A stretch of DNA of 64,000 nt from Reichenbachiella faecimaris (GTDB taxonomy: Bacteria > Bacteroidota > Bacteroidia > Cytophagales > Cyclobacteriaceae), in assembly GCF_900176375.1 (NCBI RefSeq), contig NZ_FWYF01000001.1:1062449-1126448 (forward strand), written 5' to 3'. The position numbers were made by a program, and so were the translations under genes. Below are positions 10,693-25,211 of the stretch, piece after piece. Position 1 is the stretch's first letter. Every line of letters begins with the position of its first letter. A model generated the notes under the pieces. That model saw only the letters and a program-made list of their open reading frames with translations. It did no database searches and was not told where the DNA came from.

Positions 10693-10710
10693 TTGTGGCC
10701 CCTCCAGGAA
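10693..10710. repeat. Distal att direct repeat of the integrative element (ttgtggcccctccaggaa), a copy of the tRNA-Arg 3-prime end
   Basis: It is an exact 18-bp match to 25194..25211, which overlaps the 3-prime acceptor arm of the tRNA at 25197..25268. Confidence 0.7.
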
Positions 10711-10852
10711 ACCGTAAATATTTGAAACTCAGCTTAAAACCAGAATTTAGAAAAAAAATAATCAAACATTTCCATTAATTAGGTTATTCTCATTGTGGGA
10801 AGAAACGTTCTCTTAGACAATAAAACTCCAAAAACTTAATCAAGAACAACTT

Positions 10853-10889
10853 ATTAAACTAAATTACGTACAACATATTAAACTAAATT
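10853..10889 (+). promoter_or_regulatory. Pair of 13-bp direct repeats (attaaactaaatt) upstream of the Fic gene, a candidate operator or promoter element
   Basis: Copies are at 10853..10865 and 10877..10889, about 40 bp upstream of the ATG at 10931. Confidence 0.25.
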
Positions 10890-10930
10890 TAACGCATCAA
10901 TAAATACTTAAATAAACACAAACCTTATCA

Positions 10931-12466
10931 ATGGCACTACCATCCGAAAAATTAGCACAATCTCTGGAAGTTCTGAAAGAAATACAAAGCAATGGTTCGA
11001 AAACAATCAAAGCTAAAAACCTCACCAGAACACATAGAGAAAGGTTACTAAAACATGGCTTCATCAAAGAAGTAATGAAAGGATGGTATATATCTTCAAG
11101 ACCAGATGAAGTTCCAGGAGACAGCACAAGTTGGTACACCTCATTTTGGGACTTTTGTTCTAACTATCTAAATGATCGATTTGGAAATGAATGGTGCTTA
11201 TATCCTGAGCAATCTTTACTATTACACAGTGGCAACTGGACTATACCAAATCAATTATTGGTAAAAGCCACAAAAGGCCAAAATAATCAGACCACTCTCC
11301 TTTATGGAACTTCTATCTTTGACACAAGGCTTTCTTTGCCAGCCCATGACTCAATTATTGAAATTGACGGGCTTAAACTTAACACTCTGCCGTCAGCCCT
11401 AATCTCAATTTCTGAAAATTTCTATCGTCTACATCCGATAGATAGCCGAACCGCACTGAGCTTGATTAAAGATTCATCAGATATTTTAACGCTATTATTA
11501 GATGGGGGGCATTCGACAATTGCCGGCCGGCTAGCTGGTGCATTTAGAAATATAGGTAACGATCGTGTGGCAAACGACATAATCAAAACCATGAGGGCAG
11601 CTGACTATGACGTAAGGGAGACCGACCCATTTGAAGAAAAATTACAACATTCGATCAATACTAGAGAAGTATCTCCTTATGTACAACGTATAAAATTGCT
11701 CTGGCAGCAAATGAGAGATGAAATCATAGACATTTTCCCAAAAGCTCCTGATGTAAAGAACAAAGAAAGTTACCTGAAATTAGTTGAGGAACTTTATACA
11801 ACTGACGCTTATCACTCCCTATCCATAGAAGGATATCAAGTCACTTCAGAGCTTATAGAAAGGGTCAGATCCGGTAGTTGGAATCCCGATAGTAACGTAG
11901 AAGATCAGGATCAAAAAAATGCCTTGGCCGCAAGAGGCTACTGGCTAGCCTTTCAGTCCGTGAAAACAAGTATTGAAAAAATATTTGATGGTCAACCCCC
12001 AGGAGGAGTAGCTGATTTGGATCATGGAGATTGGTATCGGGCACTTTTTCAACCGAGTGTTGCTGCAGGTATCATAAAACCTTCAGATCTGGCAGGGTAT
12101 CGCAATAGCCCTGTTTATATCAAAAATTCTAAGCATGTACCATTGAACCGGGATGCCGTCCGAGATTGCATGCCAGTCTTATTCGAACTACTGTCGAATG
12201 AATCAGAAGCTTCGGTACGAGCCATTTTAGGACATTTTATTTTCACTTTCATTCACCCCTATATTGACGGAAATGGTCGAATTGGCCGCTTCTTGATGAA
12301 CGTAATGTTGGCCTCTGGGGGGTATCCATGGACAATTATTCCTGTAGAGAAAAGAAATGAATATATGAATGCTCTAGAAAAAGCCAGTATCAATCAAGAC
12401 ATTCAACCCTTTGCTCATTTTGTTTCTCAACAAGTAAAACTTATTAATTCATCAAATAAGCGTTAA
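10931..12466 (+). CDS. Fic family protein (class II, AMPylase-type Fic core with cis inhibitory helix) with an N-terminal ~260-aa AbiEi-like wHTH extension
   Basis: The canonical Fic motif HPYIDGNGRIGR is at 12254..12289. An (S/T)xxxE(G/N) inhibitory motif (SLSIEG) is at 11816..11833, upstream of the core. The N-terminal segment (LTRTHRERLLKHGFIKEVMKGWYISSRPDE) resembles AbiEi-type wHTH. Confidence 0.85.
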   Translation: MALPSEKLAQSLEVLKEIQSNGSKTIKAKNLTRTHRERLLKHGFIKEVMKGWYISSRPDEVPGDSTSWYTSFWDFCSNYLNDRFGNEWCLYPEQSLLLHSGNWTIPNQLLVKATKGQNNQTTLLYGTSIFDTRLSLPAHDSIIEIDGLKLNTLPSALISISENFYRLHPIDSRTALSLIKDSSDILTLLLDGGHSTIAGRLAGAFRNIGNDRVANDIIKTMRAADYDVRETDPFEEKLQHSINTREVSPYVQRIKLLWQQMRDEIIDIFPKAPDVKNKESYLKLVEELYTTDAYHSLSIEGYQVTSELIERVRSGSWNPDSNVEDQDQKNALAARGYWLAFQSVKTSIEKIFDGQPPGGVADLDHGDWYRALFQPSVAAGIIKPSDLAGYRNSPVYIKNSKHVPLNRDAVRDCMPVLFELLSNESEASVRAILGHFIFTFIHPYIDGNGRIGRFLMNVMLASGGYPWTIIPVEKRNEYMNALEKASINQDIQPFAHFVSQQVKLINSSNKR

Positions 12467-12554
12467 ATTTTACCCTAGATCTTATTAACTCTAATTATAT
12501 AGATCTTTACTTGAAGTATTAAATAATTTAGATGTACATAGACGAAAACCCAAC

Positions 12555-15500
12555 TTGATCAAATCAATTTTCTCCTTTCGAAACTTTAGTATAGCTTGTT
12601 ATACACTGTCGATAGTATTAGCTCTTATCTGGCACTTTTATTTTGATGGTGGTTTCGAGCCATTCACAGTACTCCCTTTGTTCGTTCTATCTTTAGCTGG
12701 ATATCTACTCAATAAGCACGCTAACAATATAAATCATGAACTTTTTTCAAATTTTCAGAACGAAATTAATGAAGCTGAAAATTTGTTCATTTCATATTTC
12801 ACCAGATCATGCATAAAAAGACTCGATGAAATCCAAAAGAGAATTGATACGTCTACCTTAACAGGGACACTTGGTACAACATTAAAAGCTAGGGCATTCT
12901 ATCTTAAAGGCCAATGCTATAGTCATATTGGAGACAATGACAATGGCTTTCCTTGTTTCCTTCAAGCAGCATCACTGAAAACGGACATAAAATATCTAGA
13001 AAGAAAATGCACCATCACATATCATGCTGGCGAAGAAAATAATGCACTTGAAATAGCCAATGACATTCTTGAACAAGACCCCTTAAATCCACGCGCAAAT
13101 GCAATAAAACTAATTATTGATAAAAACTTTGACATAGAAAGTATACATCCTTTCCTAAAAACGGATAAAACATTTAATCAAATATTCGGCAATATAGTAT
13201 CGAAACAATATCAGATAAATATTGACAAAAAACTTATCGATCTGGAATCTATAATAGTGCCAGATACCTTAAGTTCAGAAGACTATCACTATTGGGTATT
13301 TATCCTTTCGCATAGTTATTCAAAATTCTTACAAGAAAATCCGCTGGTATATTCAAAGCCAAATCCTGATAAATTAAACTCCTCAACTTCCCTTATTTCA
13401 AATATTAGTTCAATTTCAGAAATCATTCTTAATGCCACGAAAAATTCTGAACTAATTGAACAAAGTCAAACACTCAAATCTATTGAGTTTATTAGCCTTC
13501 ATATAAAATATTTACTTTATCAAGATTCAAATATCCCCAACAAAATGGTTAAAGTTATAACTCAAGAAGGCTATGTAATTAGTGAAAATGAGTTTATAAC
13601 AACAATTGCTCTATTGGGAAAGGTCAAGCTTCCAGAAATGATACTGAATTTTAAAAATCATGATTACGTCAAAAAATTAAATCTAGAAGTAATTTTCGCT
13701 CTGGCCTGTGTTGAAACGGAAGCAAAAGATGAGGCTATCAGTTTCTTTAAAGGATACATTCAAGGTTTAAACTTAGTTCAACGCTTTGCGGTTAAAAATA
13801 TCACATTGGCCATTGAATATTTTAGGCTTAACGATATTAATACAAGCGATTTATTTGACAATCAGCTAGCAACTAAAAAATATGAATATGAAGTAGATAA
13901 GCTTCTAATTAATATTGCTTGCAAGAAAGACCATATTCCAAATGAAGAATTAAAAAAACTAATTCTTTCCCCAAACCTTGAGCATAAATTACTCAGTATA
14001 GAAAACAAAGAATATTTATGTCTATGCTTAAATCAAATCGGTGAATTCGATGAGAGTAATAAACTTCTCATGGATGACTTAGACATTTCAAAAGAATCAT
14101 TAATGAGCTATCTATATTTAGATAATCTCTATAAAAATAGGAGCCAGTACGATGATTTGATAAAAGGGCTTGAATACTGGAGGTTAAATCATGCCCCCGT
14201 TTTTATATTGATGACCTATGAAATCGAACTTCAGCATACCCTTAGAAACTATGAGAAACTGGAAGAAGTATGTAATTACGGATTAGTACACTACCAAAGC
14301 TACAAAACAACCCTAATATACTATTTAATAATTGCATTAAATGGTGAATCACACAAGATTGATACCCTGAAAAAACTCCTAAACGAGGACGCATTGAGTT
14401 GTGATTTCAGTTGGCAAATGGCGTTTCATGTAGCACGCATTTGCTTAAATCATGAGTTTTACGAAATTGGATTTGAACTAGCTTACAGGAAAACTAAGAG
14501 CCGACCAGACAATATTCAAATAAAACAACATTATTTCGCATTAGTTGCGCAATTTTTAGACTCTTCTAAAATCACTGATCCCGGCAAAGTAGAGCTCGAT
14601 TCATCAGTAATTCTAATAGGAGAAAAAAGTAAACATATTATCCATATTAATGCCGACACTATATCTGGAAATAAAATTGTTCGTGAAATTCTAAACCAGA
14701 AAGCTGGCTTTTCCTTTATTAATAAGGACGAAGCCACGAATCAAAGTCGTGAATTGACCATTGAAAAGGTGGTAAATAAATATTCAGGTTTAATGACAGA
14801 AATCATGAATGAAATTTCATCTACGAGCAAGTCATTAGGGTATGACATAATATCTGTAACATACAAACAAGATGATATTGATTCAATTAATAGAGTCCTT
14901 TCCAATAGTTTCGGTAAAATGGGTGATAAAAGACAGATCATTCAAGGAAACGCCTTTAGCAGTTTCAATTCGGGAAAAATTAGTTTCACAAAATTGGTAC
15001 TAAATGTGAATTCATCAAGTTCAATAGAGATTTATCGTTCCTTGATAAGCGACTCTACTGCCAGTATTCATATTGTACCGAAGTCGTTATTTAATCAAGC
15101 AGATTTTTCTAAAGTAACTGAATATGTCCTTGATATCACCTCTTTGTTGATCCTTTCAAAATTAAAACCCAAAATCGACAGCGAAAATATAACTCTACTG
15201 GTGTCTCAAATATTGATAGATTATTTAGAATTCAAGACACAAGAGGTAAGACATATGCCCGATGAGGCTATGAATCTAAATATTACCTCTCTGGGCGTTC
15301 AACCATTCTTCTACCCTGAAAACTATAGAGCAGAATTGCTAAAGCAACTTTCAAATTTGACAAGTTGGATATCTGAAAATTGTAAAATTGAGTTTGCACC
15401 TGACAAGCTGGACTTACTTATGAAAGACCCTACATTGCTTGATAGAGAAGATTGGCATTTTCAACTTTGTTTGGATAATCTGCTAATAGCAAATAGACCA

Positions 15501-16031
15501 AATAGGTCTATTATCTCAGATGATCTAATGTACTTTCAAGAAAAACGGCCTTTCACTAACCCTCTTAGTGTCGAACACTTTCTCAGGATTCATAAACCAG
15601 ACCAATTAAGAGAGTACCAGCTCAGCTTACTCGAATTTAACCAGGTAGGATTGACATTAGATTCTAAGGTAATAACGCAGTGTTTCGAAGAAAACCCGAT
15701 GATTGAATCATCAAATAACCTCTTCAGAAAAGCAGTTAACAACTTATCATTTCATAAACATGGTGATCCAAACCTAATTTATGAGGTAATAGTTACCGTA
15801 AAAAACATTTACTTACTCGAATTGGAAAGGGGTTTCAAGCAGAGATTAGCTCAAACCTTGTTTACTGAAGCTTTAAAAGGTTACCCAATTACACTTAACT
15901 CTGGCACTAAATTTAGTGAATTTATCAAAAAGGAATTTTGCCTAATGGGAGACATTGGTCTCGACGTTATCGATGCGCTAACCAAGTCATTAGAAATTCT
16001 AAACAAATCAAGAAATCTTGCAGCAGACTAA
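12555..16031 (+). CDS. Large (1158 aa) membrane-anchored alpha-helical repeat (TPR-like) protein of unknown function, co-oriented downstream of Fic
   Basis: The ORF is long and uninterrupted with a TTG start and no in-frame ATG for >300 codons. Two N-terminal hydrophobic helices are present. The remainder is helical, Leu/Ile/Lys/Asn-rich, without a Walker A or other recognisable catalytic motif. It lies 88 bp after the Fic stop. Confidence 0.55.
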   Translation: MIKSIFSFRNFSIACYTLSIVLALIWHFYFDGGFEPFTVLPLFVLSLAGYLLNKHANNINHELFSNFQNEINEAENLFISYFTRSCIKRLDEIQKRIDTSTLTGTLGTTLKARAFYLKGQCYSHIGDNDNGFPCFLQAASLKTDIKYLERKCTITYHAGEENNALEIANDILEQDPLNPRANAIKLIIDKNFDIESIHPFLKTDKTFNQIFGNIVSKQYQINIDKKLIDLESIIVPDTLSSEDYHYWVFILSHSYSKFLQENPLVYSKPNPDKLNSSTSLISNISSISEIILNATKNSELIEQSQTLKSIEFISLHIKYLLYQDSNIPNKMVKVITQEGYVISENEFITTIALLGKVKLPEMILNFKNHDYVKKLNLEVIFALACVETEAKDEAISFFKGYIQGLNLVQRFAVKNITLAIEYFRLNDINTSDLFDNQLATKKYEYEVDKLLINIACKKDHIPNEELKKLILSPNLEHKLLSIENKEYLCLCLNQIGEFDESNKLLMDDLDISKESLMSYLYLDNLYKNRSQYDDLIKGLEYWRLNHAPVFILMTYEIELQHTLRNYEKLEEVCNYGLVHYQSYKTTLIYYLIIALNGESHKIDTLKKLLNEDALSCDFSWQMAFHVARICLNHEFYEIGFELAYRKTKSRPDNIQIKQHYFALVAQFLDSSKITDPGKVELDSSVILIGEKSKHIIHINADTISGNKIVREILNQKAGFSFINKDEATNQSRELTIEKVVNKYSGLMTEIMNEISSTSKSLGYDIISVTYKQDDIDSINRVLSNSFGKMGDKRQIIQGNAFSSFNSGKISFTKLVLNVNSSSSIEIYRSLISDSTASIHIVPKSLFNQADFSKVTEYVLDITSLLILSKLKPKIDSENITLLVSQILIDYLEFKTQEVRHMPDEAMNLNITSLGVQPFFYPENYRAELLKQLSNLTSWISENCKIEFAPDKLDLLMKDPTLLDREDWHFQLCLDNLLIANRPNRSIISDDLMYFQEKRPFTNPLSVEHFLRIHKPDQLREYQLSLLEFNQVGLTLDSKVITQCFEENPMIESSNNLFRKAVNNLSFHKHGDPNLIYEVIVTVKNIYLLELERGFKQRLAQTLFTEALKGYPITLNSGTKFSEFIKKEFCLMGDIGLDVIDALTKSLEILNKSRNLAAD

Positions 16032-16079: not shown

Positions 16080-17252
16080 TTACAATAATGAATTACTCGT
16101 ATGAACTAACGTTCTCAAAAAGTGAATTTGAAAAAACCACAAGCAAACGCTATTAAAATGAGATAATTCGAGGTTTCTAATATTCTCAATTTCATTCTCA
16201 GGGCTAACACAATTACCATTAAACAGTAGGTTTTTAGCCAATTTTTCAGACAGAGCCCAATAATCATCCTGACGCAATAACACCCGGCCGGCAAACCTAT
16301 TTTTTAGTTTTTCAAAATCATTTTTAGAAATACCTTTGGTCAACCTATTCATTTCAGATTTTATCAATGCTATAGCTCTTTTGGTCTTTGATTTCTCTAC
16401 ATCAAATTCGAGGTAAAGAAGTCCACAATCGGAAAAACGGGGAGCATTCAGATCGATATCATAAATCAATTGATTTTCGACTCTCAGTCTTTGATAAACC
16501 CGATCCTCGAACATGCAAATGGCCAGCTGAATGTACAAATCATCTTCATGATCATATTTAGGTATTGGAAAACCTAAAATTACATGATCTGGATCTTCTG
16601 GCAGATTCGTTTTATCCCAAATTTCAAAGCTGTCGCAATAGTAAAATGCTTTTCTCACTCGGTGATTTGCCTCTAGTGATACTGTACCAAATGCATCATT
16701 AAACATGGCCTCTACTTCTGCATCTGGCAAATCCGAAATAATTGAGATTACCGCCCTCGATGTACTAAAGATCCTGGAATAAAATGCTGACATCTTATCA
16801 ACGCCAATCTTTTGAATACTGGCCTTTGTGCCAAGTATACTTCTCCCAAGGTCATGATTGCGAAAAAACAATTCGTAATACTCATCAATCATCTCATCTG
16901 ATTCGTCAATCTCACACAAAACGATCTCTTTTTCTCTTGAGACCATATCACTATCAATAGACAAGTCAAAAACCTCCTTTTTTAAAGAATCTAAACTTTG
17001 AGATAAGAATTGCTTAGGTACAACAAATTGGAAAGTCATTTCCTCATGACCGGTTCCTGCATCTAATTGTCCACCTCTCGCTTCAACTACTTCGCTGAGC
17101 TTTTGATTGGACATTATCAAATGCTCCAGAAAGTGGGCATAACCCTGTTCATCGCTTCTTTCATCCCTGCTACCAAACCCAAGAGTAAAGCAAACATAAA
17201 CACCCTGTATACCTGGGTTTCTTTGATAATATGCTTTTATCTCATTGGACAT
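16080..17252 (-). CDS. M16 family (pitrilysin/insulinase-type) zinc peptidase-like protein
   Basis: The inverted zinc motif HFLEH is at 17121..17135. The surrounding sequence, GSRDERSDEQGYAHFLEHL...EVVEARGGQLDAGTGHEEMTFQF, matches the M16 N-terminal signature (GSRhE..G.AHFLEHm...GG.lNA.T..d.T.Y). The track ORF starts with TTG at 17297. The likely ATG (MSNEIK) is at 17252. Confidence 0.7.
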   Translation of the reverse strand: MSNEIKAYYQRNPGIQGVYVCFTLGFGSRDERSDEQGYAHFLEHLIMSNQKLSEVVEARGGQLDAGTGHEEMTFQFVVPKQFLSQSLDSLKKEVFDLSIDSDMVSREKEIVLCEIDESDEMIDEYYELFFRNHDLGRSILGTKASIQKIGVDKMSAFYSRIFSTSRAVISIISDLPDAEVEAMFNDAFGTVSLEANHRVRKAFYYCDSFEIWDKTNLPEDPDHVILGFPIPKYDHEDDLYIQLAICMFEDRVYQRLRVENQLIYDIDLNAPRFSDCGLLYLEFDVEKSKTKRAIALIKSEMNRLTKGISKNDFEKLKNRFAGRVLLRQDDYWALSEKLAKNLLFNGNCVSPENEIENIRNLELSHFNSVCLWFFQIHFLRTLVHTSNSLL

Positions 17253-18100: not shown

Positions 18101-19117
18101 TTATTCCTGAGACAGAATATTTGACGCTAAAATTGATTTGCCGAGGGAATACTCAAGGCTATCCTTAAGATCCAGATCTAAGCACAGACGTTTATGGTCT
18201 GACCACCAATCATTTTTCACATGTTCCTGGATTGATTCAACTGTTAATCTCAACCTTTCTAATAGCTCATTTTCTTCTGGAATATCATCATATAAATCGT
18301 TGAATTCTCCTAACGCTGACACTGCATTGATTTTATTAAGTAGGGAGTCGCAAGCTTCAACTGTTAATTTTTGATCTTGTAAACTGAGTATTTCAACAAT
18401 TAGAGATTTAAAATCTCCGGTAAATTGAAGATTGGCATTGCCTTTTTCATCGAAGTCCTCTTTCTCTAAAATAACCTCAATTTGAAACTGGTCTGATAAT
18501 GTAATAACATCAGAGTGAAGATTGGTTTCCAAGCGTTTAATCTTCATATTCTCAAACCTTTCGATAAATCTGGTAGCCTGGTTCCAAATTAGATTCTCTG
18601 TGTATTGATCAGCATCATAATCATAAATGTCCTCAACAGCATCTTGGATATCTTCAAGACTATTTATGTAATGATCGGTTTCCTCCAGTTTATGCGCATA
18701 CTCAGGAGGTAGCTCTATCAATCGTCTCAAAACTTTCTTAAAGCCTTTCAAGGCAATTCTTTTTTTCTTGCGCAACTCTATTGCCGCAGAATTTAGTAAG
18801 TCATTTGAAGCTGAATTAGCGTCAAATTTAATGAGCTCCTTTTGTTCTTCTTGTGGTTCACTGTGAACTTGTTTGGGTTCATTTTCGACTTCCGTTGGTT
18901 CACTTTGGGATTCTACTAGTTCATTTTCCAATTGAGTCAGGGCTTCAATTTCATCATCCGAACTGAACTGATTGATCCATCTGTATATTGTGGCCTTCGA
19001 TACTTGTCCTTCTAGCTGGCGTTCAATTTCATTTGCGTTACGTCCTTCTTCAAATAACTTTCTGGCCTCTTCTCTTAATTCTTTATTTCCTTTCATGATT
19101 TCAGGTTTATAAAACAT
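18101..19117 (-). CDS. HTH-domain protein (N-terminal terminase-small-subunit-like or transposase-like HTH, acidic linker, C-terminal domain of unknown function)
   Basis: The N-terminus reads EGRNANEIERQLEGQVSKATIYRWINQ. An acidic E/Q-rich tract follows. The rest has no recognisable motifs. Confidence 0.45.
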   Translation of the reverse strand: MFYKPEIMKGNKELREEARKLFEEGRNANEIERQLEGQVSKATIYRWINQFSSDDEIEALTQLENELVESQSEPTEVENEPKQVHSEPQEEQKELIKFDANSASNDLLNSAAIELRKKKRIALKGFKKVLRRLIELPPEYAHKLEETDHYINSLEDIQDAVEDIYDYDADQYTENLIWNQATRFIERFENMKIKRLETNLHSDVITLSDQFQIEVILEKEDFDEKGNANLQFTGDFKSLIVEILSLQDQKLTVEACDSLLNKINAVSALGEFNDLYDDIPEENELLERLRLTVESIQEHVKNDWWSDHKRLCLDLDLKDSLEYSLGKSILASNILSQE

Positions 19118-19181: not shown

Positions 19182-19406
19182 TCATTCCCTTTCCATCTTT
19201 TTCTCATATTCCCATTCAATATCCAGGTGTTTGAGCAGTTTTATCATCTGGCCGCTGGAAATCAACCCCCTTTTCTTTATGTTAATTTCAGACCTAGAAT
19301 TGACAGCACTCTCAATCGATTTTCTCAATGTGGGTTGTGATACACCTAACATATCAGCCAATTCTTTACGGTTGAAAAAGTTTTTATTGTTTGGAAGTAT
19401 AACCAT
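19182..19406 (-). CDS. Small HTH DNA-binding protein (AlpA/excisionase or regulator-like)
   Basis: It is 74 aa with FNRKELADMLGVSQPTLRKSIE as the HTH. It sits immediately downstream of the iteron region. Confidence 0.5.
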   Translation of the reverse strand: MVILPNNKNFFNRKELADMLGVSQPTLRKSIESAVNSRSEINIKKRGLISSGQMIKLLKHLDIEWEYEKKMERE

Positions 19407-19494: not shown

Positions 19495-19750
19495 GCGTAG
19501 TTTTTGTAGTTTTCGTCGTTTCGAGAAATAACAAATTGATTATCAAATAATTAGGCAAGTTAAAAAAACTACAAAGCAAAAATATGTGTGTAGTTTTTTG
19601 TAGTAATGGATTCCAATTATATTGGATAAAAACTACGTATACTACATTTTTAAAATAGGAATGTAGTTTTGTAGTACACCCAAATACATCATTATTGAAT
19701 GTATAGGGCTTATTTTTAGGAAAAACTACAAAAACTACAAAAACTACGTT
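19495..19750. repeat. Iteron array (at least 9 copies of AAAACTAC / GTAGTTTT in both orientations, including 3 tandem AAAAACTAC at 19721..19748), a candidate replication or transfer origin
   Basis: Examples are cgtagtttttgtagttttcg (19497-), aaaaaactacaaagc (19563-), gtgtagttttttgtag (19588-), aaaactacgtatactac (19629-), atgtagttttgtagtac (19661-) and aaaaactacaaaaactacaaaaactacg (19721-). The array is non-coding and lies directly upstream of the primase-helicase gene. Confidence 0.65.
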
Positions 19751-19803: not shown

Positions 19804-22134
19804 TTAAAATGGTAAATCAGTACTTTCGTCGGTATCATCGGATTCCTTTCTATTAAACTCTTCCAGTTCTTCTTCATTGAGCCATTCTTGTACGATAAAA
19901 TGGTAAGCTCTAGCCTTTTCATCTTTGTAGTATATCGTTGGAGCTACTCCAGGAATCGTTGAATCAACATTATTCCATCCAATGGGAATTTTTATATCTC
20001 TAGGATCGTTTGGCTTTAATTTTCTTTTGTCTTTGAGGTATGTTTTCAACTCAATAGTATCAACCTTATATTTTGACATTTTAGGATCGTTCAATACTTC
20101 CACTAAATGACTGATTGAATACTTTAGAACAGGTAATTTGAAAGTAAGAAACTGGTCTTTAATCCAATCTTCAAAAACTCTATCCAATCGGTTTTTGGTG
20201 GTTTCTACGATGATGCGAAATTGCTCAGTTTCGAACTGGTCAGGGCTAAACCAAAGCCTATCAGTTTTGTCGTGCGCCACTGATCTATTGGCGATGAAAT
20301 GAAGGAAAGCAGGAATTTCCTTTTTCAGCTTCATTTCCAGATCCGGGTCTTTGTCTTCTTTGGGTATCACTGGCACCCGTACCACAAACCAGCGGCTTTC
20401 GCCGTCCTCGATCTTCATCACACGGTCGGCATCGTTCGAGCAAATGATTAGCTTTCCATAATAGGCCGTTTTTTTCACGTCCATGCCTTTGATTTCCATA
20501 TAGGAGGTATCGGCCGTGGCGAGCTGCTTTAGTCGCTCTTTTTCCGCTTTCTTGTCTACTTCGAGAAAACCTTCGTCTATCGCAATGATGAATTTATTTA
20601 TATAATGGGCGTTGAATTTCATTTTGAATTGATCATTGCCCAGGATAGCCATGTTCGACCCGTAGATGGCCTGTAGCCATTTGAGGAAAGTACTTTTGCC
20701 TGTGCCGTTCTCAGGACTTACTAGAATAGGTACAGGAAGCATTTGTTTGGGTCGCTGAAACTGTAAAGTCAGGTAATCCAATGCCACAGTAAACTGATCG
20801 CCAATGATATTGTTTTCTATAGTGCCTTCGCCCTGGAAGATATGCCTTAGAAATTTGGCCGTATTAGGAAACTCCCCTTCTACAAGGTCATGGGTGAGCG
20901 GACTATAAAGGTTGTAGCAATCGTAATGCACTCGTTTATAGTTCTCATTCCAACACGGTTCACTACAGAAAGCATCGTATTTAGGCACGTTGTCCAGGAA
21001 GTCAGGAAAAAACTTGTAGTCACGCTGTATTTCTCCAATTTTCCATCGTATCAAATCTTCTTCAGGTTCACCGTATTTGTTTGGCGTGGTAATCACTTTT
21101 ACCCAATCAGGGCCTATACGCATATATTTTTCGGTGTCTTCGTGTCGGACATACTTCACAGCTTCACCGTTGAACTCATACCTTCGTTTTTTGAAGAGAA
21201 ATTCCCGTGATCCTATAAATGCCTTGTAGGTAGTGTAAAATTCGGTTTCGTTGCGCAGACCGAAGTAGGCATACATGCGCTGGAGCTTGCCATCGGTGAG
21301 AATGTGACCCGTGAAATACTTCTGTGCAAACTGAAATTTGAGCAGATCATTTTTGATTTCTTCTCGTGGCTTTCCGGCGGTGTATTTGCCCAGCAGATCG
21401 TCCAGCCCTTTGGCATCTTCCTGAATGTAGCGGCTGCGAATGTGCATAAAATACACATTGGTCAAAGCCACCTGGTCGTCGTCTAGTAGCAGCTCCACCG
21501 ATTCACGCAAGTACTTGACAGCACTATAAAAAGACTGCGGCCGCTGGCTTAGGTCTTTGTCTTTCTTCCAGTTGACTGTGAGGGTGTCGGCATCGGTGAG
21601 GTAGACCAGTTTTTCGACCTTGCAGACGGTAATGAGTTCGATTAGTTCGTGGTGTAATTCGCCTGGCATATCGCCGCTGTAGAATCCGTGTATAGATGGT
21701 AACCCTACGATATCAAATCCGCACGTATCGCCCATCCAGGCTTTAAATTCACCTTCGGTGAGTACCAAAGTATCAATGTTTTCTTTCTTGGCGTATTTAG
21801 CCAATATACCAGGAGGAAAAAACGGGTGATGTCCTGATCCTTTGGGCTGCCAGTACTTCATATCACCTTCAGGATTTTTCAATCGCTTTCTGCTGAAGGG
21901 TTCCGCCCATTTGTTGCCTGGCTTGGTGTATTTGACCCGTGACTTATTGAGCTTGAAATAATTGATTACAATATTGTCTTCGTCGTCGGTTTCGAAGTAT
22001 CGGTTTGATACCTCGATATCTTCATTCGAAATATGGCCTTTTCGTTTGAGGTTTACGACATTGTTTTGGTCGGTCACACCCAGCGCCTTCATGCGCTGCT
22101 CAAAATAGCTCTGATTATTTTTCAAAGACTCCAT
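19804..22134 (-). CDS. DNA primase-helicase (N-terminal Toprim, C-terminal P-loop NTPase of the VirE/D5-like type)
   Basis: Toprim motifs are LTEGEFKAW and YLTDADT (DxD). The Walker A is SPENGTGKST and the Walker B-like motif is IIAIDEGF. Size and architecture are typical of Bacteroidetes and phage-satellite pri-rep proteins. Confidence 0.75.
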   Translation of the reverse strand: MESLKNNQSYFEQRMKALGVTDQNNVVNLKRKGHISNEDIEVSNRYFETDDEDNIVINYFKLNKSRVKYTKPGNKWAEPFSRKRLKNPEGDMKYWQPKGSGHHPFFPPGILAKYAKKENIDTLVLTEGEFKAWMGDTCGFDIVGLPSIHGFYSGDMPGELHHELIELITVCKVEKLVYLTDADTLTVNWKKDKDLSQRPQSFYSAVKYLRESVELLLDDDQVALTNVYFMHIRSRYIQEDAKGLDDLLGKYTAGKPREEIKNDLLKFQFAQKYFTGHILTDGKLQRMYAYFGLRNETEFYTTYKAFIGSREFLFKKRRYEFNGEAVKYVRHEDTEKYMRIGPDWVKVITTPNKYGEPEEDLIRWKIGEIQRDYKFFPDFLDNVPKYDAFCSEPCWNENYKRVHYDCYNLYSPLTHDLVEGEFPNTAKFLRHIFQGEGTIENNIIGDQFTVALDYLTLQFQRPKQMLPVPILVSPENGTGKSTFLKWLQAIYGSNMAILGNDQFKMKFNAHYINKFIIAIDEGFLEVDKKAEKERLKQLATADTSYMEIKGMDVKKTAYYGKLIICSNDADRVMKIEDGESRWFVVRVPVIPKEDKDPDLEMKLKKEIPAFLHFIANRSVAHDKTDRLWFSPDQFETEQFRIIVETTKNRLDRVFEDWIKDQFLTFKLPVLKYSISHLVEVLNDPKMSKYKVDTIELKTYLKDKRKLKPNDPRDIKIPIGWNNVDSTIPGVAPTIYYKDEKARAYHFIVQEWLNEEELEEFNRKESDDTDESTDLPF

Positions 22135-22185: not shown

Positions 22186-22614
22186 TCAACCAACATGTTC
22201 TAAGATCATCTTTTCAAGACTCGATGGTCGGCAGGATTGAGCGATCCTGGCAATGACATTAATCGCATCAAAACATTTTAATGGATCATCGCAATTGTCT
22301 GCAAAGTTCGAAGAAAGAATACTCATACTTTCTATCATATACTCATGAAACTCCAGCAACATGGGAGCTGTATCAAATTCATCAAAGTGAATTTCTATAG
22401 TGTCTTCCTTGCTATTAAGTGTCCTGAATATTGACCTGGCCAGCATCGAAAGAAAGGCGACTTTATCCAGTGTTTCTCTAGGTGAAATCTCGCTACCGTG
22501 AGCAGTAATTGTCTCTATGGCTTGAATTAATTGACTGTAGAACTCTTTCAGATCTGATCTGCTTTCTACACCGGGCATTTTTAATACCCAAGGATTTTTA
22601 GTAGGTTTACCCAT
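22186..22614 (-). CDS. Hypothetical protein (island backbone)
   Basis: It is a 142-aa ORF with an ATG start, good length and a terminator downstream. No motifs were recognised. Confidence 0.45.
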   Translation of the reverse strand: MGKPTKNPWVLKMPGVESRSDLKEFYSQLIQAIETITAHGSEISPRETLDKVAFLSMLARSIFRTLNSKEDTIEIHFDEFDTAPMLLEFHEYMIESMSILSSNFADNCDDPLKCFDAINVIARIAQSCRPSSLEKMILEHVG

Positions 22615-22696: not shown

Positions 22697-22978
22697 TTAT
22701 TCATCCTCTTCCAGAAAGTATCGATTGACTTCGCTCTCGGGGACATAGAGCTTTTTACCTCTCCGAATGACTTTAATCCTATTTTGATCTCTGAGTTGAT
22801 CAAACTTCCATCGACCAATTTTAGCTTGAAACATGAACTCAGATGCCGTTAAAAATTCTGGACGTGGCACCATTTTTAGATTTTCAAGTGCTCCTAAAAT
22901 CTTATTCTGATTTTCAATGAATTCTTCGAACCTTTCTGAAGGTAATTCAATTATTTGCTTGACTGATGAGCCTTCCAT
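22697..22978 (-). CDS. Excisionase-family HTH (HTH_17-like) DNA-binding protein
   Basis: The protein is 93 aa. LTASEFMFQAKIGRWKFDQL...IKVIRRGKKLYVPESEV matches the MerR-like excisionase HTH common in Bacteroidetes mobile elements. Confidence 0.55.
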   Translation of the reverse strand: MEGSSVKQIIELPSERFEEFIENQNKILGALENLKMVPRPEFLTASEFMFQAKIGRWKFDQLRDQNRIKVIRRGKKLYVPESEVNRYFLEEDE

Positions 22979-23066
22979 TTTCGTTTTATTATGAATGTTA
23001 CAGTTATTTCATAATTCAAACATAATGAGAATATATTGAAATGTGAATATTATCGTGAAATGTTTT

Positions 23067-23843
23067 TTATTTTTTCACGATTTCAAAAGTTCTTAGATAA
23101 TATTCACAAGTCTGCTGAAGTAACTCTATCTCTTCAGTTCTATAATCGGTACTCAAGAAATTTACAGACTCAATGGCATCCACTTGACACATTTCGTATG
23201 TTGTAATAATATTACCACTCCTTTGTGTTTCAAGCATTCTTTCTAACAAGGCAAAACCAACTTCAAACGGCTTAAGGATTTCTAGGTAAAAAGCAGTCTG
23301 TCCATTACTATCCGAAGAGATACTTCGAAGAGGTGTGAAAAATTCTGAAAACTTATTTGGTGTAGACAGAAGCTTGTATTTTACATCTGAGTAGCCACTT
23401 GAGACTAATTTGTCCTTCAATATAGCACCTAAGAAAAAGTCTACAGATAGAAAAATAGGATTCAAATAAATATCAAGTATACCCTTTACATTTAAGTCTA
23501 GTAGGTTTTCCCCCTTATCATAGAAATTTCTAAATATCTTTTGACAAAGCTCTACCTCCTTTTCAAGAGTATTACGAAGCATTTCTGATGGGTTTGAAAA
23601 TTGCTGCTCCGTTAAATATCCAAAATCCCAAAATTCAACGCTGCTAGAAAATTCTTGAATTGAATACTCATCGCGCTCTACATGTTCGGAGTATGACGCT
23701 AGGTGGCTTCTTATTTCAACTGGTTTATTATTATATCTCAGTCTAATATATAGCGGATACCTTGGATTATTATTTACGTCAACTTCCGGAGGGAGACGTT
23801 TATTCAAAAAATGTCTTACTGTAAACTTCTTTTCTCGAGCCAT
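23067..23843 (-). CDS. Hypothetical protein (island backbone, adjacent to the integrase)
   Basis: It is a 258-aa ORF ending 2 bp before the integrase start. No motifs were recognised. Confidence 0.45.
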   Translation of the reverse strand: MAREKKFTVRHFLNKRLPPEVDVNNNPRYPLYIRLRYNNKPVEIRSHLASYSEHVERDEYSIQEFSSSVEFWDFGYLTEQQFSNPSEMLRNTLEKEVELCQKIFRNFYDKGENLLDLNVKGILDIYLNPIFLSVDFFLGAILKDKLVSSGYSDVKYKLLSTPNKFSEFFTPLRSISSDSNGQTAFYLEILKPFEVGFALLERMLETQRSGNIITTYEMCQVDAIESVNFLSTDYRTEEIELLQQTCEYYLRTFEIVKK

Positions 23844-23845
23844 AA

Positions 23846-25036
23846 TTACAAACCTAAACTACTGATATCAATTTTATCCACTCTCTCCCCCATTTCTCTA
23901 AGAGACAGTTCATAGTAGCTCTTCGTAGTACTTTCCTTAGTATGCCCTACAATCTTTGCCGTAAATTGTGTTTCCAGGCCTTGAGCTTCCCAGAACTGAA
24001 CAGCTGAATGTCTGGCCATTTTATTGCTTAGCTTTTTATTGATCCCAGCTGCAGCTGCTATCTCTTTTAGTTTTCCATTATACTTCGGTTCTGATATCAG
24101 ACTAGGAAATATAAACTTGCTGTGTTTTCCTTTTTGTTCAGATACCAAAGCAATAGCATGCGGAAATTTGTATATGGGCGCCAGGTAGCTTTGATTGTTT
24201 TTATAGCGGTCGGCTCGAATAAAATAGCCCTGGTCACTCGCCACCAAATCAGGCCACTCTAATTTTTTTAGATCCGAATAATAAAAGGCCGCATAAAAAC
24301 AAAATAACCAGTGATTTCTTGTGTCTTCTAGATCCTGTCTATCCAGTGGCAACCTACAGTTCTTTAGTTGTAGAATCTCATCAGTTTCAAGGTATGATCT
24401 CCTGGGCTTTGAGAGCTTAATGCCTAAGTCCACCAAATAAAACGGATCTCGATCTAGGTGTCCCTGCTTCACTGCCTTTCTAGTGATTTTTTTGAAGGCA
24501 TCAAAATACTTCTTCACCGTGGCCCCGGTATGTCCTTTACCCTTTAAGAATTCAACAAACCTCAGGAATAAATCTTCGCATAAATCACAAAATAGAATTT
24601 CCTTGTTAAAAGAATTAAGATGTTTTTGAAACGTCTTATATTTCTTGATTGTATTAAGATTGTTGAATTTTTCAGTTCGAAGATAGTTCTCGATGTAATC
24701 GTTGAATAGCTGCTTGTTTCCAGTCATCCGCATGAAATCATCAATAGAAGAAAGATGAATAGAATGTCCAAAAGCTTTAAGACGATATATATGCGAATTA
24801 ATCGCAGCCACCTGATCTTGGATGAGCCTGTTTATTTCAAAGCTATTCGGATGAGATTCTTTAACCCACTTATCCGGTTTACCACTCCAAAATTTAGGAT
24901 TGATTCTTTGGTCTAAACTATAATACTTGGATTTCCGATTGATTGTAACCCTAACCTGGATCTGGTGTAACCCTGACTTTGTTTTGCGATTATTCCGATT
25001 AATTAATGGTGTAACTGAGAATCCCATTTTTTTCAT
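23846..25036 (-). CDS. Tyrosine-type site-specific integrase (Bacteroidetes type with N-terminal Arm DNA-binding domain)
   Basis: The N-terminus (KSGLHQIQVRVTINRKSKYYSLDQRINPKFW) is Arm-DNA-bind-like. The C-terminal catalytic region has ...MARHSAVQFWEAQG...IVGHTKESTTKSYY (R, H-x-x-R, H, Y). The gene is adjacent to the tRNA. Confidence 0.85.
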   Translation of the reverse strand: MKKMGFSVTPLINRNNRKTKSGLHQIQVRVTINRKSKYYSLDQRINPKFWSGKPDKWVKESHPNSFEINRLIQDQVAAINSHIYRLKAFGHSIHLSSIDDFMRMTGNKQLFNDYIENYLRTEKFNNLNTIKKYKTFQKHLNSFNKEILFCDLCEDLFLRFVEFLKGKGHTGATVKKYFDAFKKITRKAVKQGHLDRDPFYLVDLGIKLSKPRRSYLETDEILQLKNCRLPLDRQDLEDTRNHWLFCFYAAFYYSDLKKLEWPDLVASDQGYFIRADRYKNNQSYLAPIYKFPHAIALVSEQKGKHSKFIFPSLISEPKYNGKLKEIAAAAGINKKLSNKMARHSAVQFWEAQGLETQFTAKIVGHTKESTTKSYYELSLREMGERVDKIDISSLGL

Positions 25037-25193
25037 GGTTTATTCAAACCTATGACAAAAAAATGTGAAAACAAATGCGCAAACAAATACCAAAAACAAG
25101 CAACAATAAACAATTGAACAAACATCAAAAAACCTTGATTATTTACTAACAATCAAGGTTTTAGCTTTTGTTTGTATTTGCTAGATGTTGTTA

Positions 25194-25211
25194 TTGTGGC
25201 CCCTCCAGGAA
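25194..25211. repeat. Proximal att direct repeat (ttgtggcccctccaggaa) overlapping the tRNA-Arg 3-prime end
   Basis: It is an exact match to 10693..10710. Confidence 0.7.

What the first reader, a model, noticed from the sequence alone, without database searches (positions are those of the whole stretch)
10693..25211. 14.5-kb island integrated in tRNA-Arg(CCT), bounded by exact 18-bp att direct repeats
The 18-mer ttgtggcccctccaggaa occurs exactly twice in the window. One copy overlaps the 3-prime acceptor arm of an intact tRNA-Arg(CCT) at 25197..25268. The other lies 14.5 kb away, just past manA. A tyrosine integrase (23846..25036) is the first gene inside the tRNA-proximal boundary. The interior is conspicuously AT-rich relative to both flanks. 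These are the signatures of a site-specifically integrated mobile island, so everything between the repeats is accessory DNA.
Basis: seen in the sequence. Interest (0 to 1): 0.7.

Follow-up and report, generated by a model that had tools for sequence, protein, structure and literature searches.

The report
Mobile island inserted in tRNA-Arg gene
A 14.5-kb mobile DNA island sits in the end of a tRNA-Arg gene of the marine bacterium Reichenbachiella faecimaris; this is an ordinary kind of insertion, but it belongs to a small, apparently undescribed family that carries its own replication genes, an odd conserved protease, and swappable toxin or defence genes.

Summary

**What is there**
- The 18-mer occurs exactly twice. 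One copy covers the 3' end of tRNA-Arg(CCT); the other lies 160 bp upstream of manA.
- A Bacteroidota-type tyrosine integrase is the first gene inside the tRNA-side boundary.
- Island GC is 35.9% against 40.3% for the rest of the window.

**Evidence that it is inserted and mobile**
- A related Reichenbachiella genome has the same flanking genes on both sides, with the tRNA 188 bp from manA and no island.
- A second species carries a sister island at the same site. Its core is far more similar than the neighbouring manA (third-codon-position identity 84% for int, 46% for manA), and its cargo differs.
- Further members sit in tRNA-Arg, tRNA-Met and tRNA-Leu in other genomic contexts.

**Family layout**
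- The conserved core is integrase, a 258-aa protein, an AlpA/Xis-like protein, a 142-aa protein, a replaceable primase-helicase with its own iterons, a small HTH protein, a rare 338-aa HTH protein and an M16 metallopeptidase.
- Here the cargo is a Fic AMP-transferase and a 1158-aa PIN-domain protein.
- No capsid, lysis or relaxase gene was found.

**Reading**
I read it as a self-replicating, helper-dependent island, most like a phage satellite. The helper is not identified. It is ordinary as a class and mildly novel as a family.

The parts
10693..10710 (.). Integrase-distal direct repeat (att core copy): the displaced tRNA 3' end next to manA.
   Evidence: Exact 18-mer found twice in the window, 0 expected by chance. 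Sequence context read.
25194..25211 (.). Integrase-proximal direct repeat (att core copy), forming the 3' end of the functional tRNA-Arg(CCT).
25196..25268 (-). tRNA-Arg(CCT), the integration target. It is intact because the island supplies its last 16 nt.
   Evidence: ARAGORN. Rfam RF00005, 68.4 bits.
25129..25162 (-). Island-borne terminator-like hairpin (15 pairs followed by a T run), 34 nt downstream of the tRNA 3' end.
   Evidence: A hairpin is visible at the same position in the sequences read for L088, L089 and L101.
23846..25036 (-). Tyrosine integrase, Bacteroidota type. The likely start is 25027, giving 393 aa.
   Evidence: Pfam Arm-DNA-bind_5 1.2e-13, Phage_int_SAM_5 6e-17, Phage_integrase 6.5e-11. 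phrog_1 9.7e-26. The gene is called as 393 aa. It is 94% identical in L088 and 55% in L089.
23067..23843 (-). Conserved 258-aa core protein of unknown function, placed where an excision accessory factor might sit.
   Evidence: Homologues lie directly after int in L088, L089, L093, L101 and L103. The only family hint is a sub-threshold Arm-DNA-bind_5 hit at E = 0.009. That link is not supported by hhalign, probability 0.08. The AF2 model is unusable, pLDDT 43.
22697..22978 (-). 93-aa AlpA/Xis-like helix-turn-helix protein, a candidate excisionase or regulator.
   Evidence: Pfam HTH_17 at E = 0.003, sub-threshold. Homologues in L101 and L089 hit phrog_66 'excisionase and transcriptional regulator' at 2.4e-4 and 4.6e-3. 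A homologue was found in L088, L089, L093 and L094, and a gene of about 95 aa sits at the same position in L101 and L103.
22186..22614 (-). Conserved 142-aa core protein of unknown function.
   Evidence: Homologues in L088 (85% identity) and weakly in L089. No family match.
19804..22134 (-). 776-aa primase-helicase (D5/P4-type SF3 helicase core), the element's replicase.
   Evidence: Pfam DUF5906 1.2e-16 and VapE-like 3.9e-5. PHROG DNA primase families down to 5.5e-17. TIGR01613 P4 primase C-terminus matches weakly. Relatives at 45-56% identity lie in roughly 31-41-kb IMG/VR viral contigs; the two examined, L084 and L085, are temperate tailed phages.
19497..19747 (.). Iteron cluster and candidate replication origin. 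The 110-aa ORF at 19430-19762 that overlaps it is probably not a gene.
   Evidence: 9 of the window's 15 AAAACTAC copies fall here, against 2.5 expected for the whole window. They occur in direct and inverted arrays. Local GC is 27.7%. The cluster is conserved in L088. Other members have different iterons at the same position.
19182..19406 (-). 74-aa helix-turn-helix protein (CI-repressor-like HTH), a candidate regulator.
   Evidence: Pfam Phage_CI_repr 1.1e-4, 23 bits against a cut-off of 22. A small HTH gene sits at the same position in L088, L089, L093 and L102.
18101..19117 (-). 338-aa family-marker protein. It has an N-terminal homeodomain-like HTH, an acidic disordered linker and an all-helical C-terminal domain. 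Function unknown.
   Evidence: Only 3 clusters match in 5.8 billion, and 25 representatives in 1.84 billion. AF2 model pLDDT 68.8. No fold match in BFVD or PDB. Across the family the N-terminus hits HTH_23 in 10 of 19 members and Terminase_5 in 7 of 19. PHROG hits are a mix of TerS, transposase and generic HTH families.
17313..17978 (-). 221-aa variable-slot gene with a sulfotransferase-like N-terminal motif.
   Evidence: Sulfotransfer_3 at E = 0.002, sub-threshold. It is replaced by unrelated genes of 184 aa in L088, 135 aa in L089, and 89 plus 276 aa in L101.
16080..17297 (-). M16B metallopeptidase, a conserved core gene. The likely start is 17252, giving 390 aa.
   Evidence: Pfam Peptidase_M16 6.7e-19 and Peptidase_M16_C 1.9e-21. 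HxxEH (H55, E58, H59) plus E122 and E129 are invariant in 4 members. It is linked to the 338-aa gene in L088, L089, L093, L096 and L101.
12555..16031 (+). Cargo: 1158-aa protein with a PIN domain of the TPR-GreAB-C-PIN type. The N-terminus looks hydrophobic.
   Evidence: PF20698 at 2.3e-6, 28.4 bits against a cut-off of 27.8, residues 858-993. No PADLOC, PHROG or PDB match. GC 32.9% and the largest tetranucleotide deviation in the window. Absent from L088.
10931..12466 (+). Cargo: 511-aa Fic-domain protein, a predicted AMP-transferase.
   Evidence: Pfam Fic 1.4e-10. PADLOC SoFic 6.6e-22. FICD structures 2.7e-19 over residues 232-500. HPYIDGNGRIGR motif and SLSIEG inhibitory motif read from the translation. 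A 71%-identical Fic sits at the distal end of the L089 island.
10618..10676 (-). Outside the island: a decayed tRNA-Arg 3' half (anticodon loop to 3' end) with a hairpin insertion. Probably the scar of an older integration.
   Evidence: Alignment with the tRNA and with L003 9834-9918. Hairpin at 10658-10640. Sequence read.
9337..10533 (-). Chromosomal flank: manA (mannose-6-phosphate isomerase).
   Evidence: Pfam match. Syntenic in L003, L004 and L088.

Best explanation
The region 10693-25211 is a site-specifically integrated, self-replicating mobile island of about 14.5 kb in Reichenbachiella faecimaris.

**Integration (inferred from the anatomy).** The tyrosine integrase recombined an 18-bp core in the circular island with the identical 3' end of tRNA-Arg(CCT). 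The island carries a replacement tRNA 3' end and a terminator hairpin, so the tRNA stays intact. The original 3' end is left as the distal repeat beside manA.

**Shown here.**
- The repeats, the tRNA and the integrase are present at the stated positions.
- A relative has an island-free site.
- Sister islands exist at the same tRNA and at other tRNAs.
- The island core is younger than the split between its hosts.
- The family has a conserved core with variable cargo.

**Inferred life cycle.** Integrase, probably helped by the AlpA/Xis-like 93-aa protein and the 258-aa protein, excises the island. The primase-helicase then replicates the circle from the iteron cluster just downstream of its own gene.

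**Transfer.** The island has no capsid, tail, lysis, large terminase, relaxase or mating-pore gene. It must therefore borrow another element to move between cells. I judge a helper phage (satellite lifestyle) the most likely route, at about 45% against about 20% for conjugative mobilisation.

**Cargo and unknowns.** The integrase-distal third is exchangeable cargo. Here it is an autoinhibited Fic AMP-transferase and a large PIN-domain protein, which are probably toxin or anti-phage functions that pay for the island's upkeep. The conserved 338-aa HTH protein plus active M16 peptidase module belongs to the element's own biology, but its role is unknown.
For: **Boundaries and target**
- Exact 18-bp repeat, 0 expected by chance.
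- tRNA-Arg(CCT) overlaps the right copy.
- The integrase has three diagnostic domains.
- A terminator-like hairpin lies just inside the island.

**Island-free site**
- L003 has conserved genes on both sides: LemA 94%, thioredoxin 92%, rhodanese 74% and manA 69% identity.
- Its tRNA-Arg(CCT) is 188 bp from manA.

**Sister island L088 at the same site**
- It has its own 16-bp repeat.
- Core nucleotide identity is 85-90%, against 72% for manA.
- Third-codon-position identity is 84% for int, 77% for p142 and 69% for the primase, against 46% for manA.
- Its cargo is different: a 1258-aa protein plus HipA with an HTH partner.

**Other members**
- L089/L090 sits in tRNA-Arg(CCT) beside accC.
- L093/L099 sits in tRNA-Met with a 17-bp repeat about 11.3 kb apart.
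- L101, L102 (tRNA-Leu) and L103 (MmeI-like RM cargo) extend the family.

**Replication module**
- The primase-helicase matches DUF5906 and PHROG primase families.
- An iteron cluster lies directly 3' of it and is conserved in L088.
- Different iterons accompany different replicases in L089 and L093.

**Phage link**
- The nearest primase relatives outside the family, where context was checked, lie in temperate tailed phages of about 37-41 kb.
- None of the 12 island ORFs matches a structural, lysis or relaxase family in Pfam. The 10 largest have no such match in PHROGs or NCBIfam either.

**Composition**
-.
Against: - No excised circle, attP junction or packaged form was seen. None of the family contigs is circular, and the attP-type junction is absent from IMG/VR.
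- The 338-aa and M16 markers are absent from IMG/VR, and the 338-aa marker is also absent from the JGI metagenome scan.
- No recognisable hijacking gene is present. TerS-like signals in the 338-aa family are confined to a generic HTH and appear in a minority of members. Fold searches found nothing.
- No candidate helper was identified. Cultured phages share only 24-29% identity over part of the helicase.
- The Xis assignment rests on sub-threshold hits.
- The origin is inferred from repeats only.
- The island-free relative is a different species and carries an older tRNA-fragment scar, so it is not a strict before-and-after pair.
Confidence: 0.85

Rival explanations
1. It is an integrative mobilizable element of the Bacteroides NBU type. 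It excises like NBU1 (int, accessory ORFs, Xis-like protein, primase gene in the same order) and is transferred as single-stranded DNA by a co-resident conjugative element acting on an unrecognised oriT.
For: - The integrase is a Bacteroidota-type tyrosine integrase targeting a tRNA 3' end, as NBU1 and NBU2 do (review PMC5704250, read).
- The gene order int, 258 aa, 93 aa Xis-like, 142 aa, primase resembles intN1-orf2-orf2x-orf3-prmN1. That order is from my own recollection of the NBU1 literature and was not tested here.
- Some known mobilizable elements carry no relaxase of their own (PMC5704250, Table 2, read).
Against: - None of the 12 island ORFs matches a relaxase, coupling-protein or Mob family.
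- The replicase is a large phage-type primase-helicase with iterons, and its nearest relatives outside the family are in tailed phages.
- NBU means 'non-replicating Bacteroides unit', whereas this family always keeps a full replicase and origin.
- No conjugative element is visible in the window; this was not searched exhaustively.
Confidence: 0.2
2. It is a decayed prophage remnant. A roughly 40-kb temperate phage integrated in tRNA-Arg, then lost its structural and lysis genes. The island is now an immobile fossil that happens to keep its integrase and replication genes.
For: - The primase-helicase is 45-56% identical to those in IMG/VR viral contigs. The two examined, L084 and L085, also carry Bacteroidota-type integrases.
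- No transfer machinery is present.
Against: - At least five elements in different hosts and tRNAs share the same compact architecture of about 11-15 kb, with intact ORFs and exact repeats.
- The shared non-phage core genes (258 aa, 338 aa, M16) are absent from the phage loci.
- The island is much younger than the host split, so it has moved recently.
- Random decay would not repeatedly produce the same gene set.
Confidence: 0.05
3. The 18-bp repeat is a chance or duplicated tRNA fragment, and the region between the copies is ordinary chromosome.
For: A second, decayed tRNA-Arg fragment does lie just outside the left repeat. tRNA-derived fragments therefore occur here independently of this island.
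Against: - The shuffle expectation for the 18-mer is 0.
- An integrase lies adjacent to the tRNA.
- A relative has an island-free site.
- Sister islands carry their own matching repeats.
- There is a compositional shift.
Confidence: 0.01

Closest known systems
Phage-inducible chromosomal islands (PICIs, including SaPIs) and the loosely defined 'Type C PICI' class of SatelliteFinder (integrase + AlpA + primase/replicase; PMC10085698, read)
   Same: - Size of about 11-15 kb, roughly a third of the related ~37-41-kb phages.
- Integrase at one end beside a specific att site.
- AlpA/Xis-like small HTH protein.
- Primase-helicase followed by an iteron origin.
- No structural or lysis genes.
- Accessory toxin or defence genes at the integrase-distal end.
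- Similar elements present in different species.
   Different: - The host phylum is Bacteroidota (Cytophagales), which the abstract of that survey does not list among the taxa where satellites were found.
- This member has no divergent stl/str-type regulator pair.
- No recognisable terS, ppi, cpm or rpp gene is present.
- The conserved module is instead a rare 338-aa HTH protein plus an M16 metallopeptidase.
- Helper induction and packaging are untested.
P4-like satellites
   Same: - Integrase together with a large fused primase-helicase.
- A weak match to TIGR01613, 'phage/plasmid primase, P4 family' C-terminus.
- Origin repeats near the replicase gene.
- Defence genes carried in a hotspot.
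   Different: - No psu, delta, sid or epsilon homologue among the PHROG hits.
- The TIGR01613 score is 27 bits against a cut-off of 108.7.
- The hosts and the integrase type are unrelated.
Marine virion-encapsidated integrative mobile elements (VEIMEs; PNAS 2022, PMC9618062, read)
   Same: - Marine hosts, including Flavobacteria.
- Small integrative elements with tyrosine integrase, primase/helicase, AlpA or excisionase, and sometimes TerS-like genes.
   Different: - VEIMEs are defined by being found packaged as concatemers in virus particles.
- No packaged or circular copy of this family was found in IMG/VR.
Bacteroides NBU1/NBU2 mobilizable elements, and the Riemerella anatipestifer 10K genomic island in tRNA-Arg (PMC5704250 read; PMC6764341 read)
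   Same: - IntN1-like Bacteroidota tyrosine integrase.
- Integration in the 3' end of a tRNA gene with short direct repeats.
- Size of about 10 kb.
- Toxin-antitoxin or other cargo.
   Different: - NBUs carry a MobP relaxase and oriT and do not replicate; this island has no relaxase and has a full replicase plus iterons.
- The Riemerella island has a 53-bp repeat, and its gene content was not compared.

Membership tests
tRNA-integrated genomic island with tyrosine integrase | Direct repeats at both ends, one being the 3' part of an intact tRNA gene. | tested here: met
   18-bp exact repeat; the right copy covers the last 16 nt of tRNA-Arg(CCT) plus 2 nt.
tRNA-integrated genomic island with tyrosine integrase | Integrase gene adjacent to the tRNA-side boundary. 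| tested here: met
   The integrase start is 158 bp from the repeat, and three integrase domains are present.
tRNA-integrated genomic island with tyrosine integrase | Island-free site in a relative with both flanks conserved. | tested here: met
   L003. It is a different species and carries an older tRNA-fragment scar.
tRNA-integrated genomic island with tyrosine integrase | Composition differs from the chromosome. | tested here: met
   35.9% GC against 40.3%, with tetranucleotide z up to 6.8.
tRNA-integrated genomic island with tyrosine integrase | Excision to a circle, with attP and a restored attB. | not testable with these tools
No circular contig was found and no attP-type junction occurs in IMG/VR.
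PICI / phage satellite | Replication module (primase or replicase plus origin) of its own. | tested here: met
   DUF5906/P4-type primase-helicase. The iteron cluster is conserved in L088, and other iterons sit at the same position next to the differing replicases of L089 and L093. Origin function is inferred.
PICI / phage satellite | No phage structural or lysis genes. | tested here: met
   No such match among the 12 island ORFs.
PICI / phage satellite | AlpA or Stl/Str-type regulator next to the integrase. | tested here: inconclusive
   p93 has only sub-threshold HTH_17, and its relatives have weak phrog_66 hits. This member has no divergent repressor, though L102 has one.
PICI / phage satellite | Packaging or capsid-hijack genes (terS, ppi, cpmAB, rpp, or own capsid genes). 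| tested here: inconclusive
   The only signals are Terminase_5 and TerS-PHROG hits to the N-terminal HTH of some 338-aa family members, not this one. There is no fold match.
PICI / phage satellite | Induction and packaging by a helper phage. | not testable with these tools
   Needs experiment. The related primase in uncultured temperate phages is the only lead.
P4-like satellite | psu, delta, sid, epsilon and alpA core genes. | tested here: not met
   No PHROG or Pfam match to these in any scanned island ORF. The P4 primase C-terminus model is far below its cut-off.
NBU-type integrative mobilizable element | Own relaxase (MobP) and oriT. | tested here: not met
   No relaxase or Mob family match in the 12 island ORFs. 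oriT cannot be recognised by sequence alone.
Prophage | Terminase, portal, capsid, tail and lysis modules. | tested here: not met
   By contrast, tail-fibre and head-maturation protease/capsid-type matches are found in the related phages L084 and L085.
Fic AMP-transferase (cargo gene 10931-12466) | HxFx(D/E)GNGRxxR catalytic motif and Fic fold. | tested here: met
   HPYIDGNGRIGR. Pfam Fic 1.4e-10. FICD structures 2.7e-19. Below the NCBIfam SoFic equivalog cut-off, 27 bits against 550, so it is not SoFic itself.
TPR-GreAB-C-PIN conflict system (cargo gene 12555-16031) | PIN domain of family PF20698 together with TPR and GreA/B C-terminal domains. | tested here: inconclusive
   PIN domain at 28.4 bits against a cut-off of 27.8. 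No TPR or GreAB-C domain was detected at E <= 0.001, and there is no PDB match.

The most novel reading that the evidence does not exclude
This island may be a founding member of an undescribed family of phage satellites of marine Bacteroidota (Cytophagales). In this reading its helper-interaction module is the conserved pair of a rare HTH protein (338 aa, with a TerS-like N-terminus in some members) and an active M16 metallopeptidase. The peptidase might, for example, sense or sabotage a helper-phage protein, or cleave a repressor. The integrase-distal end would serve as a hotspot for exchangeable anti-phage or toxin genes: Fic, PIN-TPR, HipA and MmeI-like RM in different members.
Probability: 0.25. 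Interest if true: 0.6.

Novelty: new variant of a known kind. Interest (0 to 1): 0.35.

Why it matters
**As an island.** This is routine. It marks 14.5 kb of R. faecimaris as accessory DNA and identifies tRNA-Arg(CCT) beside manA as a recurrent integration hotspot.

**As a family.** The modest added value is at family level. The satellite survey read here (PMC10085698) reports most satellites in Proteobacteria and Firmicutes and some in Actinobacteria. How the many 'orphan' genomic islands move is also an open question.

This family gives a compact, comparable set of elements with three useful properties:
- a conserved core;
- replaceable replicases with matching iterons;
- a cargo slot that holds Fic, PIN, HipA or restriction-modification genes in different members.

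If a helper were found, the family would extend satellite biology to marine Cytophagales. It would also assign a role to an M16 peptidase in mobile-element biology.

Tried and rejected
**Relatives and contexts**
1. Exact-protein look-ups of manA and rhodanese found only the same strain.
2. The IMG/VR scan with the 338-aa protein found nothing. The same scan with the M16 protein also found nothing.
3. The JGI metagenome scan with a 338-aa alignment found nothing.
4. The integrase alignment in the same collection yielded one useful locus, L093.
5. A search for the attP-type junction in IMG/VR found nothing.
6. A test for circular family contigs found none.
7. Cultured phages share only 24-29% identity over part of the primase-helicase, so no helper candidate emerged.

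**Function of the core proteins**
8. The idea that the 258-aa protein is a free-standing arm-binding domain rested on a sub-threshold Pfam hit. It is not supported by profile-profile comparison, probability 0.08.
10. The idea that the 338-aa protein is a small terminase gave no BFVD or PDB fold match. Only generic HTH cross-hits appeared, so the question is left open.
11. PADLOC has no model for any core gene or for the PIN protein.
12. PDB sequence searches of the primase-helicase and the PIN protein returned nothing.

**DNA features**
13. A search for shared arm-type sites at the two island ends found no convincing repeated motif shared by both ends.
14. Rfam found no RNA in 9-27 kb other than the tRNA.

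**Literature**
15. The NBU1 primary papers and Williams 2002 are not held in the library. Statements about them rest on the IME review and on my own knowledge.

Full report
**1. The observation**

The 18-mer TTGTGGCCCCTCCAGGAA occurs at 10693-10710 and 25194-25211 and nowhere else in the window, even with two mismatches allowed. Shuffled sequence gives no match.

ARAGORN places tRNA-Arg(CCT) at 25196-25268 on the minus strand. Rfam agrees, at 25197-25268 with 68.4 bits. Read in the tRNA's sense, the repeat runs from the last two bases of the T-loop through the 3' T-stem, the 3' acceptor stem and the discriminator, to a few bases past the gene.

The left copy lies 160 bp upstream of manA (9337-10533, minus strand).

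The ORF at 23846-25036 carries the three domains typical of Bacteroidota integrases: Arm-DNA-bind_5, Phage_int_SAM_5 and Phage_integrase.

The interior averages 35.9% GC against 40.3% outside. Its tetranucleotide usage departs from the rest of the window by up to 6.8 standard deviations at 12-16 kb. The shift is not uniform: the primase-helicase gene is 42.8% GC.

**2. Host and island-free site**

The 338-aa and 258-aa island proteins are identical to Reichenbachiella faecimaris entries with locus tags SAMN04488029_0906 and _0912.

A scan of one genome per species with ManA returned Reichenbachiella MAGs as the nearest relatives, at 69-71% identity. In one of them, L003, the order is TPM, LemA (94% identity), thioredoxin (92%), rhodanese (74%), one unrelated gene, tRNA-Arg(CCT), a 188-bp gap, then manA. 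No island gene is present.

The site is not pristine. Between the tRNA and manA, L003 carries a decayed copy of the 3' half of a tRNA-Arg, from the anticodon loop to the 3' end, interrupted by a 32-nt GC-rich insertion. The window has the homologous relic at 10618-10676, just outside the left repeat, with a 19-nt hairpin insertion. I read this as the scar of an older element that used the anticodon-loop sublocation. That reading is an inference. It draws on Williams 2002, cited from my own knowledge and listed in the references of PMC6764341. It suggests the locus is a recurrent hotspot.

**3. A family of islands**

The primase-helicase has a 91%-identical relative on a 15.9-kb contig, L088. 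That contig starts inside a tRNA-Arg(CCT) and ends in a manA only 72% identical to the window's.

L088 has the same gene order from the integrase to the M16 peptidase. Its boundaries are marked by its own repeat, GTAGCCCCTCCAGGAA. Its cargo is different: a 1258-aa protein and a HipA kinase with an HTH partner.

| Gene (window vs L088) | Third-codon-position identity |
|---|---|
| int | 84% |
| p142 | 77% |
| primase-helicase | 69% |
| p258 | 58% |
| p93 | 53% |
| manA (chromosomal) | 46% |

Most of the island backbone is therefore much younger than the split between the two hosts, and it is mosaic. That is direct evidence of horizontal movement.

More distant members are listed below.

| Locus | Target and context | Notes |
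|---|---|---|
| L089/L090 (Cyclobacteriaceae MAG) | tRNA-Arg(CCT), beside accC | A 71%-identical Fic sits at the distal end |
| L093/L099 (TARA) | tRNA-Met, between era and der | 17-bp repeat, about 11.3 kb apart |
| L101 | Contig starts inside a tRNA 3' end (Arg-like by eye, no tRNA called) | Same core order, VapE/DUF5906 helicase |
| L102 | tRNA-Leu | Divergent repressor; an HTH-M78 peptidase in place of M16 |
| L103 | Another Reichenbachiella; no tRNA checked | MmeI-like restriction-modification cargo |

**4. Anatomy of the core**

In the direction of transcription away from the tRNA, the core runs as follows.

- **Integrase.**
- **258-aa protein.** It is found after int in six members, but has no supported family.
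- **93-aa protein.** It has weak but consistent AlpA/excisionase-type signals.
- **142-aa protein.** No family match.
- **Replicase.** This is a DUF5906/P4-type primase-helicase in the window, L088 and L089. L093 has a DnaG-type primase fused to a helicase-like C-terminal region (weak DUF927 match). L103 has a DUF3987 protein.
- **Iteron cluster.** An AT-rich cluster of short repeats lies immediately downstream of the replicase gene. In the window, 9 of the 15 AAAACTAC copies fall in 19497-19747, in direct and inverted arrays. The cluster is conserved in L088. L089 has TGTTAC at 9-bp phase, and L093 has AATGTTGGA five times. Iterons that change with the replicase are what an origin would show. 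I therefore call this the origin and regard the 110-aa ORF over it as spurious.
- **Small HTH protein**.
- **338-aa protein.** Only about 25 representative clusters match it among 1.84 billion. It has an N-terminal homeodomain-like HTH, a disordered acidic linker and a helical domain with no fold match. Some relatives hit Terminase_5 or TerS PHROGs through the HTH only.
- **Variable slot.** It holds zero to two genes. Here it is a 221-aa protein with a sulfotransferase-like N-terminus.
- **M16B peptidase.** Its HxxEH zinc site and downstream glutamates are invariant in four members.

Just inside the tRNA-side boundary there is a 15-bp-stem hairpin followed by a T run, oriented to terminate the tRNA transcript. 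A hairpin is visible at the same position in the sequences read for L088, L089 and L101. The island thus replaces both the tRNA's 3' end and its terminator.

**5. Cargo**

The integrase-distal 5.3 kb holds two plus-strand genes.

- The 511-aa protein is a Fic enzyme with an intact HPYIDGNGRIGR motif and an SLSIEG inhibitory motif. It resembles FICD structures at 2.7e-19 and hits the PADLOC SoFic model at 6.6e-22. It lies far below the NCBIfam SoFic equivalog cut-off.
- The 1158-aa protein has a PIN domain of the TPR-GreAB-C-PIN type just above the Pfam cut-off, and nothing else recognisable.

This is the most AT-rich and compositionally most deviant part of the island. It is the part that differs between family members.

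**6. How it most likely works**

*Shown:* integration at the tRNA 3' end, recent horizontal spread, a conserved core and exchangeable cargo.

*Inferred:* excision by the integrase with the Xis-like protein, then replication of the circle by the primase-helicase at the iterons.

*Transfer:* none of the island ORFs scanned matches a capsid, portal, tail, large terminase, lysis, relaxase or mating-pore family. A helper is therefore needed. I favour a phage helper for four reasons.

- The primase-helicase's nearest relatives outside the family (45-56% identity) lie in IMG/VR viral contigs. The two examined, of about 37-41 kb, are temperate tailed phages with an integrase, tail fibres and a head-maturation protease.
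- The island is about a third of that size.
- The layout matches PICI and P4-like satellites.
- Satellites typically carry defence cargo (PMC10085698; my own knowledge of the P4 and PICI hotspot literature).

Against this, no packaged or circular form, no hijack gene and no helper were found. I put the satellite reading at about 45%, conjugative mobilisation at about 20% and an immobile remnant at about 5%.

**7. Comparison with known systems**

- The island is a member of the broad class of tRNA-integrated genomic islands with tyrosine integrases.
- It works like a PICI or P4-type satellite, but it fails or leaves open the defining tests for either family (see the membership table).
- It shares integrase type and target logic with Bacteroides NBU elements, but it lacks their relaxase and has what they lack, a replicase (PMC5704250).
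- The Riemerella 10K island in tRNA-Arg is a functional precedent for such integrases in Bacteroidota (PMC6764341).
- Marine VEIMEs are the nearest ecological analogue (PMC9618062), but they are defined by packaging, which is untested here.
- I found no paper describing this family in three literature searches.

**8. Verdict**

The finding is real and correctly interpreted. As a class it is ordinary. As a family it is a new variant, because of its Bacteroidota host, its conserved 338-aa plus M16 peptidase module and its modular replicases. Overall interest is modest.

Noticed in passing
window 10618-10676 (and L003 9834-9918): A decayed tRNA-Arg 3' half (anticodon loop to 3' end) lies between manA and the tRNA or left repeat. 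In it, the 5' T-stem strand is replaced by a hairpin-forming insertion of 19 nt in the window and 32 nt in L003. It is present in both the island-bearing and the island-free species. It is probably the scar of an older element using a different crossover sublocation.
   Followed up: partly
L088 14592-14607 versus L003 9900-9918: In L088 the island's distal repeat sits exactly where L003's decayed tRNA fragment begins, with the same chromosomal flank. The history of this junction therefore differs between species and is not a simple one-step insertion.
   Followed up: partly
window 19497-19747; L088 5497-5747; L089 12411-12654; L093 16249-16347: Each family member has a different short iteron directly downstream of its replicase gene: AAAACTAC, TGTTAC and AATGTTGGA. 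The replicase types differ in step with the iterons.
   Followed up: yes
window 16080-19117 and L088, L089, L093, L096, L101: An apparently active M16 metallopeptidase is always linked to a very rare 300-360-aa HTH protein, with 0-2 unrelated small genes between them. No function can be assigned. L102 has an HTH-M78 peptidase in the equivalent place.
   Followed up: partly
window 6062-9286: A 1074-aa M43 metallopeptidase with PKD, GEVED and T9SS sorting domains lies next to manA. It is present in L004 but absent from L003. Its region is a tetranucleotide outlier (z = 3.6) despite a high GC content.
   Followed up: no
window 55000-59000: A second low-GC patch (34-36% GC, tetranucleotide z = 2.1-2.4) holds an OmpR-type winged-helix protein, an alpha/beta hydrolase and a BNR-repeat T9SS protein. 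No integrase or repeat was looked for.
   Followed up: no
window 10832-10879: Two tandem copies of a 24-bp unit (79% identical) lie in the 220-bp spacer between the left repeat and the Fic gene. They could be an operator or integrase-arm sites.
   Followed up: no
L103 8665-9748 and 17216-20266: The Reichenbachiella sp. MALMAid0571 member has fragments of a second integrase just after its own. It carries a 1016-aa MmeI-like restriction-modification gene as cargo and shows no M16 peptidase in the held stretch.
   Followed up: no
L085 14943-15917: The temperate phage carrying a related primase-helicase also encodes a reverse transcriptase (phrog_1423 'Reverse transcriptase', 5e-119).
   Followed up: no
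window 12555-12750: The 1158-aa PIN-domain ORF starts at TTG, and its first ~55 residues look like two hydrophobic helices. The true start, and whether the protein is membrane-anchored, are uncertain.
   Followed up: no
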